A stretch of 64,000 nt of DNA from a virus: positions 48,369 through 112,368 of IMG/VR virus record IMGVR_UViG_3300028874_000010. One strand, written 5' to 3'. Each line of letters begins with the position of its first letter. Positions within the stretch are counted from its first letter, which is position 1. The notes beneath the pieces were generated by a model. That model had not been told where the DNA came from and did no database searches. It saw nothing but the letters and a program-made list of their open reading frames with translations. The position numbers and the translations under genes are program-made. Shown piece after piece: positions 2,827 to 53,348 of this stretch.

Positions 2827-2860
2827 AAAAAAGGCCTCTTTAGATTAGAGGCCTTTTTTT
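2827..2860. terminator. bidirectional intrinsic terminator
   Basis: AAAAAAGGCCTCT-N7-AGAGGCCTTTTTTT. Confidence 0.8.
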
Positions 2861-2862
2861 GT

Positions 2863-3519
2863 TTATTGCGGGTTTTGGATTTCGGTTGGGGTGTAGACGA
2901 AAGTTCCAGTATCTTTATCCTTTGTGATCGGCATAACAAATCGATCTTTTGGATTTCGGAGTATCGACAAGTAAACATGAACGATACGTTCAGATAGCTC
3001 CGAATTTTCTTTACTGCAGGTTTCCATGAGTTCCTTGACGGTCCACGGTTTGTAGTTCCCATTGGCATCTTTAACACGGAAAGCTGCCGCCATCCGTTGG
3101 AGCTTCGAGTCGCGAACTTTCCGGACTTTGGGGCCTGCGACTACTGGAGGAACTTGGTCAACCGCAGGTTGGATTTCGGCAGATGCAGCAATTTCTTGCT
3201 TATCGATCTCCAGAGCGGCTTCTTCGATTTTGGCTTCTTCAATCTTGTCCAATTGAACAAGAGCTGAAAGATCGAGTGCTTCGAGAGCCGACCAAACTTT
3301 CTGCATTGATTCTGTTTTGGAGGTCTTGAACAAATTCCGGGTTTCGCCGGTGATGGCGTTATATATTGATGTCAATTCGGCGCTCGAAAAATCATAGGCG
3401 GCCAAAGTATCAAGCGAAGAAACACAAAAATCTTTTGGATATTTCTCAGCGGCGATTGTCTGATCTTGGACATACCCGATGACCTTAGTCATATCTGCAT
3501 CAATAATAAACAATGACAT
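2863..3519 (-). CDS. hypothetical protein, possible C-terminal winged-helix DNA-binding domain
   Basis: Start moved to MSLFIIDAD (AGGAG RBS); early-type promoter upstream. Confidence 0.55.
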   Translation of the reverse strand: MSLFIIDADMTKVIGYVQDQTIAAEKYPKDFCVSSLDTLAAYDFSSAELTSIYNAITGETRNLFKTSKTESMQKVWSALEALDLSALVQLDKIEEAKIEEAALEIDKQEIAASAEIQPAVDQVPPVVAGPKVRKVRDSKLQRMAAAFRVKDANGNYKPWTVKELMETCSKENSELSERIVHVYLSILRNPKDRFVMPITKDKDTGTFVYTPTEIQNPQ

Positions 3520-16822: not shown

Positions 16823-17718
16823 TGTGCAGGCCCTATCATATGACATTCATCATACATGATTTTCAAATATTTATCAGATGAATAAGTGAACTCTCCGGCC
16901 TTCATATTTTCCAACATTTCATTTGCTGGAATATACATATGAACTTCACTGTGTTTATATTTGTCCCAAATCTTTTGTCGCATCCCATTATCTAAATCTT
17001 CACTACCTTCAAAACCATGATACTTAGGACGAGGTTTAACTTCAATATCAAAATATTCTTTGTATTGTTGAGGTTTTCTAGATCTACCATCAACTAAGCC
17101 ATATGTGTGAAAGTTTTTAAATTCATTAGAATTTAAAATTGATGCGATAATACCAGGTGATGATTTTAACGGCGAGACCAAAACATTACTTTTGCCAAAG
17201 GCTTGAGCTATGGCATAATCTTTTTCCCGTTCTTGAACAAATGTGGTATCACGAAAATGTTTTGGCTCTGGGTGAATAGATGGAAGAATAACTAATTTTT
17301 TAGATGTGGCTGCCCACCATCTAGCAATATATAAATGAATCGGGAGTTGAGGACTTGTACATTTGAAATTTTTAACAATCATATCAAATTCTTTACCTTC
17401 CCAGAACTCCTTTAAATTAAAATACTTATATTTTAGTTCACAGTGTCCACTAAGTTCTTCAACCCAAGCAATATCATGTTCATTGACTGTTTTATTTTCA
17501 TACCTCAAATTGTATGCTACTGCTGTTACATTCTTTCCAGCTTCAATAAGTAAACGAGCCATGACCTCACTATCTATGCCACCACTAGCCATAACAATCA
17601 AATCTTGCGGAAGTTTATCAAAAATCTTCTGAAGTTCTTCTTTGGGCGTTCCAAATGAATCAACCTTAGGATAGGAGACTGAAAAATCATGAGGGCCAAG
17701 GCTTGAATATTTAATCAT
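16819..17718 (-). CDS. PP-loop (asparagine-synthase-like) adenine nucleotide alpha-hydrolase
   Basis: SGGIDSE; RPKYHGFE motif. Confidence 0.6.
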   Translation of the reverse strand: MIKYSSLGPHDFSVSYPKVDSFGTPKEELQKIFDKLPQDLIVMASGGIDSEVMARLLIEAGKNVTAVAYNLRYENKTVNEHDIAWVEELSGHCELKYKYFNLKEFWEGKEFDMIVKNFKCTSPQLPIHLYIARWWAATSKKLVILPSIHPEPKHFRDTTFVQEREKDYAIAQAFGKSNVLVSPLKSSPGIIASILNSNEFKNFHTYGLVDGRSRKPQQYKEYFDIEVKPRPKYHGFEGSEDLDNGMRQKIWDKYKHSEVHMYIPANEMLENMKAGEFTYSSDKYLKIMYDECHMIGPAQ

Positions 17719-45865: not shown

Positions 45866-46264
45866 TCATGACATGATACTCTCCAATTCGATTTTAAGTT
45901 TAGCAATAGCCTCTTCTTTATATGTCACGTTCTTCTTTGCATCTTCAAGTTCAAATTCATACTTCGTAATTTGTTTCTCCACACCCCATATTTTTACAGC
46001 TTTGATAGGGTCTTCAGATCTGATAAGCTTCATTGGGATTCTGTATGAACTAGAATTAGAACAGCCTCTGGCTGACCAACTAGTTTCAATGTGTAATATG
46101 TCATGATCTATTTCTAGAGATTCTATCTGGTCATTCATGAGACCACCATAGCCTGCAGCTTCCACAAGTTCAGAAAGTTTGCGTTGGCACTCGTTGATAT
46201 CGGGGTTTTTGTATTTGCTGATATCAAATGATGCTTGTTCTATAAGTTCGATGATGGTAGTCAT
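45866..46264 (-). CDS. hypothetical protein
   Basis: GAGG RBS. Confidence 0.55.
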   Translation of the reverse strand: MTTIIELIEQASFDISKYKNPDINECQRKLSELVEAAGYGGLMNDQIESLEIDHDILHIETSWSARGCSNSSSYRIPMKLIRSEDPIKAVKIWGVEKQITKYEFELEDAKKNVTYKEEAIAKLKIELESIMS

Positions 46265-46273
46265 TTATTCACC

Positions 46274-46570
46274 TCAGTAGGATAAAAGTTTATTGGTGTA
46301 TTTCTTGGTAAGCTTAATTAAAACATCGCCATGGCAACGGGATGGTGAGCACCAACACCCAAGAGTTTTGCCTAGCAATTCCGGCAAACTACTTAAAAGT
46401 TCTGGCATCATTTCAATATATTCTTCATACATCGAAATGACTTCTTCTCTGGTACCATCTATTCCAATAACGAATGGATTAGCCTACTTAGAGGCAGGAA
46501 GATTGTGATGGTCATTCTTCCTACCTATGTAGACATCATATGGATGTTTAAGGCAATGAACTACTTTCAT
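46274..46570 (-). pseudogene. DUF4326-family gene with in-frame TAG
   Basis: MKVVHC..YDVYIGR...SK*ANPF...LGCWCSP..CHGDVL; TAG at 46484-46486 where Trp is expected. Confidence 0.75.
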
Positions 46571-46892
46571 AGGTTGGTTTATAAAGGTTATACTTAGTCA
46601 TGATTCTTCGTGTCTTCATATCTTTGATAGGCATTGTCGCAATTGCAGAATGTCCCATATCAAAATCCGGTTCTTTGAACATTGTATACTTGATGTCATA
46701 CCGTTCAAGCCGTTGTGCAATCTCATGGAGTTCAGCTTTGTTTTTAGCTGGCAACATAATGATGCTAGAGATCGGATCATCAGAACCATGAAGAGTTTTT
46801 CCGGCTTCTAGCGCGGCATGAGAAAGCTGAACCATTTGCTGAGCGAGAGAAAGATCGGTTCGGATGAACACATAAGTGTATGGGTGATCCAT
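46548..46892 (-). CDS. PTH2-like peptidyl-tRNA hydrolase
   Basis: YVFIRTDL..AQQMVQ..HAA, F.EPD, SAIAT.P. Confidence 0.7.
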   Translation of the reverse strand: MDHPYTYVFIRTDLSLAQQMVQLSHAALEAGKTLHGSDDPISSIIMLPAKNKAELHEIAQRLERYDIKYTMFKEPDFDMGHSAIATMPIKDMKTRRIMTKYNLYKPTYESSSLP

Positions 46893-46894
46893 GA

Positions 46895-47245
46895 TTATGC
46901 ACCTCCAAGCTTGGTCAGATCATGATGGAGACTATCAAGGATCAATAGGAATCGGGTCCATTGCTCTGGTGTCAATTCAAGCCCATATGTCCAAGTATTG
47001 GATTTCTGTTTAGTCCAATAGATCAGACCTCGGAGTGCAGCATCATACGCGTTAAACGGAGGAGTTTTGTGCTTGCAAGGAGAGAATGCTTTGGTAGCTT
47101 TAGCCTTAATATCAGGCACAGCCGAAGCAAAGATTGCGTGAGTGAGATAATCAGCAGAGTCAAATGTATGTTTGTCTGCGTGCGATTTTTTCCAGGCAGC
47201 GATGAAAGATTCGTGCTGGGTCTTGCTAAGAATAAAGTCGAACAT
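46895..47245 (-). CDS. hypothetical protein, first gene of the PTH2 operon
   Basis: AAAGGA RBS before MFDFIL. Confidence 0.6.
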   Translation of the reverse strand: MFDFILSKTQHESFIAAWKKSHADKHTFDSADYLTHAIFASAVPDIKAKATKAFSPCKHKTPPFNAYDAALRGLIYWTKQKSNTWTYGLELTPEQWTRFLLILDSLHHDLTKLGGA

Positions 47246-47251
47246 GATATT

Positions 47252-47357
47252 TCCTTTGAATGTATTTTGTGGGTACTGTGAATAATTGCTATTCTGGATG
47301 TAGCCACACATTCAAGGAGATTGGGATTTAACTCATAACATGATAGTATTTCCTTTT
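47252..47357 (-). promoter_or_regulatory. minigene ATG-TTA-TGA plus RBS-sequestering hairpin
   Basis: SD AAAAGGA; minigene 47333-47341; 47304-47318 pairs with 47252-47272. Confidence 0.55.
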
Positions 47358-47627
47358 AAAATAATTACTGGTGAAATGGCACCAGTACCAAAAGTATTTA
47401 TAAGCGTTTTAGATCATTAATACAAATCCCAAACGCTGTACCTATGAACCAATTGTATAACACTTCATCATCGCCATACAACTTTTTTTTCTTGAAATTT
47501 ATCACAAGTTCTTCTTTCAAGTTTGGATCCGATTTAAGATTCATAACTATTGGTTTATCCCAAGACAACATTTGGATTGTCTTGGACCATAGCGAATCAA
47601 TCAAATCTTGATAAGTACCAACACACA

Positions 47628-53270: not shown

Positions 53271-53348
53271 TGGTAGTCTGTATCGGATTCGAACCGATGA
53301 CCTACTGTTTTGAAGACAGATGCTCTAACCAGACTAAGCTAACAGACC
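53271..53348 (-). tRNA. tRNA with TCA anticodon (opal/UGA suppressor)
   Basis: CTGT-CTTCAAA-ACAG; standard 7/5 class I body, A73, CCA. Confidence 0.82.

What the first reader, a model, noticed from the sequence alone, without database searches (positions are those of the whole stretch)
47245..47402. ATG-TTA-TGA minigene with an in-frame second UGA gating the RBS of a peptidyl-tRNA-hydrolase operon
Seen: TATAAATA (47395-47402), SD AAAAGGA, then ATG TTA TGA GTT AAA TCC CAA TCT CCT TGA ATG..., which continues in frame into the gene starting at 47245. The second UGA lies in the 5' arm (47318-47304) of a stem whose 3' arm (47272-47252) contains that gene's AAAGGA SD. The next gene is PTH2-like. 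Established: two-codon minigenes such as lambda bar cause peptidyl-tRNA drop-off that needs Pth, and prfB uses an internal UGA as an RF2 sensor. Inference: stalling at, or read-through of, the first UGA opens the hairpin, so the Pth operon is translated when termination or recycling fails, or when the phage's own UCA tRNA (53271) is present.
Basis: partly seen in the sequence, partly recalled or inferred. Interest (0 to 1): 0.8.

Follow-up and report, generated by a model that had tools for sequence, protein, structure and literature searches.

The report
Suppressor-tRNA gate on phage hydrolase operon
A tiny start-Leu-UGA reading frame and an RNA hairpin sit in front of a two-gene operon for a Pth2-like peptidyl-tRNA hydrolase in a jumbo phage. 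Together with more than 40 related phages that put an early stop codon matching their own suppressor tRNA in front of the same enzyme, this suggests that these orphan phage suppressor tRNAs switch this gene on.

Summary
These are the TATAAATA motif, the ribosome-binding site (SD), ATG-TTA-TGA, a second in-frame TGA inside the 5' arm of a hairpin that pairs with the next gene's SD, a Pth2-fold gene downstream, and a phage tRNA(UCA).

The leader is not chance. The one relative with DNA on hand (L005, about 46% protein identity in the gated gene) keeps the promoter motif, a 5' hairpin, SD, ATG-TTG-TGA, a second stop in the 5' arm, and the SD-masking stem with a compensated base-pair loss. It also carries two tRNA(UCA) genes.

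The wider result: 41 of 82 distinct phage Pth2-like genes begin "ATG, 0-6 further codons, TAG" and then run on with no start codon of their own. They include GAP32, CBB, RsoM2USA, XacN1 and ME3. All 9 such genomes checked carry tRNA(CUA). All four TGA cases (window, L005, L105, Atu_ph07) go with tRNA(UCA). No gate uses TAA.

Best reading (0.6): decoding of the leader UGA by the phage suppressor tRNA opens the hairpin and turns on the operon. A lambda-bar-like or RF2-sensor reading is untested and less supported. I found no description of this in the papers searched.

The parts
47395..47402 (-). TATAAATA, a T4-late-type promoter-like motif that overlaps the stop codon of the upstream gene
   Evidence: all 10 copies in the window are on the coding (minus) strand. 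The motif is conserved as CTTATAAATA at the same place in L005. Promoter activity is inferred.
47366..47387 (-). 8-bp hairpin followed by a T-rich run. It is either the terminator of the upstream gene, the 5' stem-loop of the leader transcript, or both.
   Evidence: L005 has a hairpin at the same place with a G:C to U:A change on both sides.
47351..47356 (-). SD (AAAGGA) of the leader minigene, 9 nt before its ATG
   Evidence: L005 has AGGAG at the same place.
47333..47341 (-). Minigene ATG TTA TGA, the gate codon
   Evidence: L005 has ATG TTG TGA. In both, the base after the stop is G.
47312..47341 (-). Leader ORF as read if the first UGA is decoded (M L x V K S Q S P stop). Its second stop, TGA 47314-47312, lies in the 5' arm of the hairpin.
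   Evidence: In L005 the second stop is TAA, at the same place in the stem.
47304..47318 (-). 5' arm of the SD-masking hairpin. It starts 17 nt after the first base of the gate UGA.
47252..47272 (-). 3' arm of the hairpin, holding the SD AAAGGA (47257-47252) of the 116-aa gene
   Evidence: pairing probability 0.85, hairpin dG -18.6 kcal/mol.
47309..47311 (-). ATG abutting the second stop (TGA-ATG), in frame with the main gene. It is a possible re-initiation start that would give a 138-aa form.
   Evidence: In L005 the second stop overlaps an in-frame ATG (TAATG), 21 codons before the main ATG. Homologues P0002 and P0021 were called from this ATG.
46895..47245 (-). First gene of the operon, 116 aa. 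It is an all-helical protein of unknown function.
   Evidence: no family match. Five further homologues start at the equivalent of ATG 47245. AlphaFold pLDDT is 86.8, and no PDB relative was found.
46548..46892 (-). Pth2-like (peptidyl-tRNA hydrolase 2 fold) gene with its own ATG, which lies 3 nt (ATC) after the TAA stop of the 116-aa gene
   Evidence: Its SD is also mostly paired (0.86), which is compatible with translational coupling.
53271..53348 (-). Phage tRNA with anticodon UCA (opal suppressor), the proposed trans-acting inducer
   Evidence: It is the only suppressor tRNA in the 112-kb contig.

Best explanation
The leader is a translational gate that answers to the phage's own opal-suppressor tRNA. 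Ribosomes start at the SD-preceded ATG 47341 and meet UGA at codon 3. If RF2 terminates there, the ribosome stops about 17 nt short of the hairpin. The SD of the 116-aa gene then stays paired, and the operon (116-aa gene plus the downstream Pth2-like gene) is poorly translated. If tRNA(UCA) decodes the UGA, the ribosome runs on to the second stop, which lies inside the 5' arm, and melts the stem. Translation can then start at the freed SD-ATG 47245, or re-start at the abutting ATG 47311. Shown here: the anatomy, its conservation in one relative, and the match between early stop codon and suppressor anticodon across phages. Inferred: that the tRNA decodes this UGA, that the hairpin limits translation, and why a Pth2-like enzyme should be coupled to suppression. 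One guess for the last point is that the enzyme cleans up peptidyl-tRNA or stalled ribosomes produced by read-through.
For: 1. L005 keeps the same parts in the same order. These are CTTATAAATA, a 5' hairpin, SD, ATG TTG TGA G, a second stop in the 5' arm, and a perfect 10-bp stem over the SD with 5 more pairs over the AUG. The gate-to-stem spacing is 16 nt against 17 nt in the window. One G:C pair is lost on both sides of the stem.
2. L005's contig has two tRNA(UCA) genes, and the window's contig has one.
3. Protein homologues P0002 and P0021 keep 'MC' and 'NTFKG.IM', which are the two stem arms, while the residues encoded by the loop diverge.
4. Among 82 distinct Pth2-like genes, 41 carry an early in-frame TAG and have no usable start of their own, 1 has a TGA gate and 2 have TGA leaders. 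None uses TAA. The base after the gate stop is a purine in 41 of 41.
5. tRNA(CUA) was found in 9 of 9 TAG-gate genomes that were checked over their tRNA regions, including ME3 and pT24, which have only 3-4 tRNAs. It lies within 3 kb of the gene in many further loci.
6. The other TGA cases also go with UCA. L105 has tRNA(UCA) directly upstream. Atu_ph07's PF01981 gene starts ATG + 5 codons + TGA, and its paper reports a UCA suppressor (PMC6102473).
7. As a control, 18 loci with a plain ATG start have no SD + ATG-NNN-stop within 700 nt upstream.
Against: There is no expression, ribosome or protein data. Only one relative gives DNA for the leader type, so the covariation rests on two sequences. 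The window leader's fold is only moderately better than shuffles (z = -1.9), and the SD's pairing ranks 6th of 44, so it is not extreme. The amino-acid identity of the tRNA and its efficiency against RF2 are unknown. Basal UGA leakiness could also open the gate. 37 of 82 Pth2-like genes have plain starts, so gating is not obligatory. The association counts include related phages and are not independent events; the tree needs at least 5 changes of state. The tRNA checks covered the tRNA-bearing regions of each record, not every base.
Confidence: 0.6

Rival explanations
1. The leader is a termination or recycling stress sensor that works without the phage tRNA. Slow RF2 action, ribosome stalling or peptidyl-tRNA drop-off at the two-codon minigene (lambda-bar-like or prfB-like) lets ribosomes proceed or unfolds the hairpin, so the Pth2-like enzyme is made when termination or Pth activity is limiting.
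For: The minigene has the bar-like form of SD + ATG + one codon + stop. The product is a Pth2-fold protein. The contig also encodes a tmRNA, which fits a ribosome-rescue theme.
Against: A ribosome held at codon 3 ends about 17 nt before the stem, so stalling alone should not open it. Across phages the gate codon follows the phage's suppressor anticodon and is never TAA, which a general drop-off sensor would not require. The codon before the stop is not conserved, and the number of codons before the stop ranges from 2 to 7, counting the ATG.
Confidence: 0.15
2. The leader is a constitutive damper. The minigene and hairpin only set a low, fixed translation level or stabilise the mRNA, with no conditional switch, and the link to the suppressor tRNA is an indirect effect of shared genomic neighbourhoods.
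For: SD-masking stems and small upstream ORFs are common. The window's fold z-score is modest. Pth2-like genes often sit in tRNA clusters, so proximity to some tRNA is expected.
Against: The stop-anticodon match (TAG with CUA, TGA with UCA) and the absence of TAA gates are not explained by neighbourhood. Direct TAG gates leave the ORF with no start codon, so without read-through there would be no product at all.
Confidence: 0.12
3. This is plain recoding. Both UGAs are read as sense, and the real product is a 148-aa protein that starts at ATG 47341.
For: In the window the minigene, the second TGA and the main ORF share one frame.
Against: In L005 the minigene is out of frame with the main gene and its second stop is TAA. 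Five homologues start at the equivalent of ATG 47245. The extension is not conserved as protein between the window and L005. No general TGA recoding is seen in the contig.
Confidence: 0.05

Closest known systems
Leader-ORF translational attenuation with an SD-masking hairpin (ermC / cat type)
   Same: A short SD-preceded leader ORF sits upstream. A stem hides the SD of the regulated gene. The position reached by the leader ribosome decides whether the stem is open.
   Different: The signal here would be decoding of a stop codon by a phage tRNA, not antibiotic-induced stalling. The leader has only 2 sense codons before the decision point.
Stop-codon gating by phage suppressor tRNAs in recoded phages (Borges et al., bioRxiv 10.1101/2021.08.26.457843)
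   Same: A phage-encoded suppressor tRNA is proposed to license translation of genes that carry in-frame stops.
   Different: Those phages carry many in-frame stops in late and lysis genes, amounting to a change of code. Here the genome uses the standard code. A single early stop, or a leader, in front of one gene family is the only target found. That paper does not mention hydrolases.
Lambda bar two-codon minigenes
   Same: The form is SD + AUG + one sense codon + stop, and there is a functional link to peptidyl-tRNA hydrolase.
   Different: bar minigenes are toxic elements that sequester tRNA in pth-defective hosts. They are not known to gate a downstream gene. The codon identity differs, and no toxicity or drop-off was tested here. 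This comparison rests on my own knowledge, not on a tool result.
prfB (RF2) autoregulation through an in-frame UGA
   Same: An early in-frame UGA is used as a sensor of decoding versus termination.
   Different: prfB needs a +1 frameshift at a slippery CUU U site with an internal SD, and it regulates RF2 itself. None of these features is present here.
Read-through extension proteins (Q-beta A1 type)
   Same: Locus L105 has a Pth2-like ORF with no start codon, in frame after the UGA stop of a 99-codon ORF.
   Different: The window and most gates place the stop at codons 3-8 or in a separate leader, so no functional short product exists.

Membership tests
PTH2 (Pfam PF01981) for the gene at 46548-46892 | HMM score at or above the gathering cut-off (23 bits) | tested here: inconclusive
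   22.9 bits, E = 1.1e-4, covering profile positions 4-115 of 115. Close homologues P0010 and P0016 carry a precomputed PF01981 hit.
PTH2 (Pfam PF01981) for the gene at 46548-46892 | Pth2 alpha/beta fold | tested here: met
   AlphaFold pLDDT 83. The top 13 Foldseek hits are Pth2 entries, Bit1 and close structural relatives deposited without a function, with E down to 2.4e-5 and TM 0.6-0.73.
PTH2 (Pfam PF01981) for the gene at 46548-46892 | Peptidyl-tRNA hydrolase activity and catalytic residues | not tested
   No residue-level comparison or assay was done.
Lambda bar-type minigene | SD + AUG + one sense codon + stop | tested here: met
   AAAGGA, 9 nt, then ATG TTA TGA.
Lambda bar-type minigene | Peptidyl-tRNA drop-off and toxicity in Pth-limited cells | not testable with these tools
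   Needs genetics or biochemistry.
prfB-type RF2 sensor | Slippery site and internal SD that drive a +1 frameshift at the UGA | tested here: not met
   No frame change is needed and no CUU-U site is present. The downstream sequence is in frame or is a separate ORF.
Leader-ORF / SD-masking hairpin attenuator | Leader ORF with its own SD upstream of the regulated gene | tested here: met
Leader-ORF / SD-masking hairpin attenuator | Stem that pairs the regulated gene's SD and overlaps the leader's coding region | tested here: met
   The stem is conserved, with a compensated loss of one pair, in L005.
Leader-ORF / SD-masking hairpin attenuator | Expression changes with ribosome position in the leader | not testable with these tools
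   Needs reporters or toeprinting.
Suppressor-tRNA-dependent stop-codon gating | Phage-encoded suppressor tRNA whose anticodon matches the gating stop | tested here: met
   The window and L005 pair TGA with UCA. L105 and Atu_ph07 do the same. 9 of 9 TAG-gate genomes have CUA.
Suppressor-tRNA-dependent stop-codon gating | Many in-frame stops across late genes (a change of code) | tested here: not met
   Coding is dense under code 11, and no split genes were found at TGA.

The most novel reading that the evidence does not exclude
The orphan nonsense-suppressor tRNAs of standard-code jumbo phages are dedicated trans-acting inducers of a Pth2-like hydrolase. This would be a conserved two-part switch, made of a tRNA plus a stop codon in the first few codons, present in dozens of lineages (GAP32, CBB, RsoM2USA, XacN1, ME3, pT24, Atu_ph07 and many uncultured phages). 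The window would carry a derived opal version in which the stop has moved into a leader ORF that works through an SD-masking hairpin and controls two genes.
Probability: 0.5. Interest if true: 0.9.

Novelty: new variant of a known kind. Interest (0 to 1): 0.8.

Why it matters
Many large phages with a standard genetic code carry amber or opal suppressor tRNAs whose purpose is unknown. The XacN1 authors searched for targets and found none (PMC5852040). The pattern found here offers a concrete and testable target. It is a Pth2-like gene whose first few codons hold the matching stop, or in this window a leader ORF with the matching stop. If true, it shows a tRNA acting as a gene-specific inducer. 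It links suppression to peptidyl-tRNA or ribosome-rescue housekeeping. It explains why this gene is missing or truncated in many GenBank phage annotations. It would also provide a natural, compact suppressor-responsive switch for synthetic biology.

Tried and rejected
**Tools and searches that gave nothing usable**
The DNA around homologues P0002 and P0021-P0025 could therefore not be fetched, and leader covariation rests on the window and L005 only.
- Scans for relatives of the 116-aa gene found only L005's contig: IMG/VR and JGI metagenomes. Alignment A5 was too divergent to scan with.
- A DNA pattern scan for the leader in IMG/VR gave L005's contig plus two hits with no related genes nearby, which I judge to be chance.
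- Sequencing runs: no RNA holder is listed. The four DNA runs laid did not cover 47197-47360, so they gave no variant information on the leader.
- megablast and tblastn of the region against named phages gave no near relative.
- No Rfam family matches the leader.

**Ideas tested and dropped**
- General TGA recoding of the contig is rejected. Coding is dense under code 11. Same-frame ORF pairs separated by TGA show no continuity of a family across the stop.
- The ATG TCA TGA at 45874 is only the end of an ordinary gene.
- Assigning an amino acid to the suppressor tRNAs by similarity was inconclusive.
- The fold of the 116-aa protein has no PDB match.
- Scanning about 430 kb of gate-type phages for other SD + short ORF + stop + long startless ORF arrangements recovered the Pth2-like gates and only noise-like others.

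Full report
**Source.** The window is the last 64 kb of a 112-kb IMG/VR viral contig. CheckV rates it 32% complete, which implies a phage of roughly 350 kb. GC content is 37%. Sequencing runs that hold the stretch are mostly peat metagenomes. Almost all coding is on the minus strand, and it is dense under the standard code. The nearest named relative is Ralstonia phage RsoM2USA. ARAGORN finds 15 tRNAs in the window. One has anticodon UCA, at 53271-53348. Rfam scores it as an ordinary tRNA at 68.4 bits, not as tRNA-Sec.

**The observation.**
- TATAAATA (47402-47395) overlaps the upstream gene's TAA.
- An 8-bp hairpin with a T-rich tail lies at 47387-47366.
- The SD AAAGGA lies at 47356-47351.
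- ATG TTA TGA lies at 47341-47333. Six more codons follow, then a second TGA (47314-47312) that directly abuts ATG 47311.
- The main gene starts at ATG 47245, preceded by the SD AAAGGA at 47257-47252.

The hairpin alone is worth -18.6 kcal/mol. The SD is paired with probability 0.85, against a median of 0.45 for 44 SD-bearing genes of the contig, which puts it at rank 6. The leader as a whole is only moderately more stable than shuffles (z = -1.9).

The downstream gene (46548-46892) is just under Pfam's PTH2 cut-off, at 22.9 against 23 bits. Its model (pLDDT 83) matches Pth2 and Bit1 structures and their structural relatives at the top of the list.

**Is the leader more than chance?** The 116-aa gene has few relatives. 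The only one with DNA available is L005, an IMG/VR contig of 185 kb. There the gated protein is about 46% identical and the Pth2-like protein 67% identical to the window's.

Its upstream region has the same parts in the same order:
- CTTATAAATA, then a hairpin with a G:C to U:A change on both sides.
- The SD AGGAG, then ATG TTG TGA followed by G.
- A second in-frame stop (TAA) inside the 5' arm.
- A perfect 10-bp stem, CCUUAAUGUU with AACAUUAAGG, over the SD, plus five more pairs over the AUG.

Compared with the window's stem (CCUUGAAUGU with ACAUUCAAAGG), one G:C pair has been lost on both sides. The distance from the gate UGA to the stem is 16 nt in L005 and 17 nt in the window. That is about the reach of a ribosome, so a ribosome terminating at codon 3 would leave the stem closed, while one reaching the second stop would melt it. 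L005's leader folds with z = -3.0, and none of 200 shuffles does as well.

Two features are shared and one is not. In both phages the second stop touches an ATG that is in frame with the main gene: TGA-ATG in the window and TAATG in L005, 22 and 21 codons upstream of the main start. However, the minigene itself is out of frame with the main gene in L005 (95 nt against 96 nt).

Two further homologues are known only as proteins, P0002 and P0021. Both were called from that upstream ATG. They keep 'MC' and 'NTFKG.IM', which are the two stem arms, while the residues encoded by the loop differ completely. This is the pattern expected of an RNA stem, not of a conserved peptide. Five other homologues start at the equivalent of ATG 47245.

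As a control, 18 Pth2-like loci with ordinary starts show no SD + ATG-NNN-stop within 700 nt upstream.

**The wider pattern.** While looking for relatives of the Pth2-like gene, I found that RsoM2USA and Serratia phage BF have it unannotated. The reason is that the ORF has no start codon. It is preceded, in frame, by SD + ATG TTG TAG in RsoM2USA and by ATG ACG CAC TAG in BF.

I surveyed 91 loci from IMG/VR, JGI metagenomes and GenBank phages, which hold 82 distinct protein sequences.
- 41 have an early in-frame TAG. It is most often the third codon (ATG NNN TAG) and at most the eighth.
- 1 has TGA in that role, and 2 (the window and L005) have the TGA leader.
- 37 have a plain ATG.
- None has a TAA gate, although TAA is the commonest stop in these AT-rich phages.
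- The base after the gate stop is a purine in all 41. From my own knowledge of the Bossi and Miller work, a purine is the context that favours suppression.
- 29 of 41 have a clear SD core.

Named phages with the gate are GAP32, CBB, XbC2, fHe-Yen9-04, BF, RsoM2USA, ME3, Arash, pT24, and XacN1 and RAS14. In the last two the gate opens a 283-aa fusion protein. Three huge uncultured phages also have it. In GenBank the gene is either absent or truncated to an internal start.

On a tree of the protein, gated and ungated forms are interleaved, and at least five changes of state are needed. The window and L005 are sisters (support 100/95).

**Match with suppressor tRNAs.** Nine TAG-gate genomes were searched across their tRNA regions, and every one has a tRNA(CUA). 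They are RsoM2USA, BF, ME3, GAP32, RAS14, pT24, LR756511 and two IMG/VR contigs. ME3 has four tRNAs in all and pT24 three or four, yet each has one with CUA, lying 0.4 kb and 2.9 kb from the gene.

In many more loci a tRNA(CUA) lies within 3 kb of the gene. In several plain-ATG loci it begins about 40 nt after the gene's stop.

All TGA cases go with UCA.
- The window's contig has one tRNA(UCA).
- L005's contig has two.
- L105 has a tRNA(UCA) directly upstream. There the Pth2-like ORF continues in frame after the UGA stop of a 99-codon ORF.
- Agrobacterium phage Atu_ph07 is reported to carry a UCA suppressor (PMC6102473). One of its PF01981 genes begins SD + ATG + 5 codons + TGA and then runs on with no start codon. 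The GenBank CDS there is truncated.

No phage checked carries the non-matching suppressor anticodon (UCA in a TAG-gate phage, or CUA in a TGA-type phage). These counts include related phages, so they are not independent trials, but the match holds across several deep clades.

**Mechanism.** The best-supported reading is that the leader UGA is a checkpoint for the phage's opal suppressor. Without decoding, the ribosome ends at codon 3 and the SD stays masked. With decoding, the ribosome reaches the second stop, opens the stem, and the operon is translated. The Pth2-like gene starts 3 nt after the stop of the 116-aa gene, and its SD is also mostly paired (0.86), which fits translational coupling.

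The direct TAG gates in other phages achieve the same result more simply, and placing the stop at the very start wastes only a di- or tripeptide. The window's leader looks like a derived form that extends control to an extra gene.

Why a Pth2-like enzyme should be tied to suppression is inference. One possibility is clean-up of peptidyl-tRNA or stalled ribosomes created by read-through of normal stops. This contig also encodes a permuted tmRNA. Another possibility is feedback control on the suppressor itself.

**Rivals.** The alternatives are a sensor of RF2 or Pth stress that is independent of the tRNA, a constitutive damper, and plain recoding to a 148-aa protein. They are weighed in their own section of this report. 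None explains the codon-anticodon match and the absence of TAA gates as well.

**Literature.** Searches of the paper library found no description of an early stop codon in phage Pth2 genes, and none of a link between suppressor tRNAs and peptidyl-tRNA hydrolase. The library is incomplete.
- The XacN1 paper states that targets of its two CUA suppressors could not be identified.
- The stop-codon recoding preprint of Borges et al. proposes suppressor-licensed translation of late genes in recoded phages, but it does not mention hydrolases or standard-code jumbo phages of this kind.

**Limits.**
- There is no expression or protein evidence.
- The amino acid carried by the suppressor is unknown.
- The function of the 116-aa helical protein is unknown.

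**Verdict.** The window shows a new variant of leader-and-hairpin translational control. It points to a widespread pairing of suppressor tRNAs with gated Pth2-like genes that I did not find described.

Noticed in passing
L003:1986-2330 (RsoM2USA), L004:1986-2324 (Serratia BF), L050/L056/L057/L058 about 2477-2815 (GAP32, CBB, XbC2, Yen9-04), L132 (Atu_ph07 record 198552-198990): The Pth2-like genes of many GenBank jumbo phages are unannotated or truncated to an internal start. The true ORF begins ATG + 1-6 codons + TAG (TGA in Atu_ph07).
   Followed up: yes
L007-L009, L011, L012, L018, L019, L021 about 2850-3050; L034 3454-3527; L028 and L029 3021-3096: In most plain-ATG Pth2-like loci of IMG/VR listed here, a tRNA(CUA) begins about 40 nt after the gene's stop, so the two look co-transcribed even where no gate codon is present. 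In L009, L028/L029 and L034 the gap is larger, roughly 0.2-0.7 kb.
   Followed up: partly
L051:1952-2815 (XacN1 ORF364), L053:1946-2809 (RAS14): Here the Pth2-like domain is the C-terminus of a 283-aa protein whose ORF opens with ATG AAG TAG. The N-terminal domain was not identified. XacN1's paper reports no known target for its two CUA suppressors.
   Followed up: partly
contig G000:C1:3808-4242 (minus strand), outside the window: ARAGORN calls a permuted (two-piece) tmRNA with tag ...ANDAYFGETRLAA. It is a second phage-encoded ribosome-rescue element in the same genome.
   Followed up: partly
window 14930, 27716, 35221, 47395, 51903, 53197, 54391, 55271, 57503, 57824: All 10 copies of TATAAATA are on the coding strand. 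The total count is not above chance (6.3 expected), but the strand bias and their placement suggest a T4-late-type promoter.
   Followed up: partly
L018:2849-2995; L113 (RAS14) 17429-17503: In L018 an ochre-type tRNA(UUA) directly follows the tRNA(CUA). RAS14 also carries one. No TAA gates were seen, so their role is open.
   Followed up: no
L059:2486-2590 (LR756501, 735-kb uncultured phage): The Pth2-like ORF has a second in-frame TAG 33 codons after the gate, and two tRNA(CUA) genes lie nearby. This phage may use TAG as a sense codon more widely.
   Followed up: no
L105:75-760: The order is tRNA(UCA), then a 99-codon ORF ending in TGA, then a Pth2-like ORF in frame with no start codon. This is a read-through-extension form of the same idea.
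   Followed up: partly
window 46274-46432: A 52-aa ORF just downstream of the Pth2-like gene hits the C-terminal part of phrog_464 and an NrdA-like PHROG. It may be a gene fragment or a small domain protein.
   Followed up: no
window 46892 (start of the Pth2-like gene): The Pth2-like gene's SD (GGAGG) is paired with probability 0.86, rank 5 of 44 genes. This fits translational coupling to the 116-aa gene.
   Followed up: no
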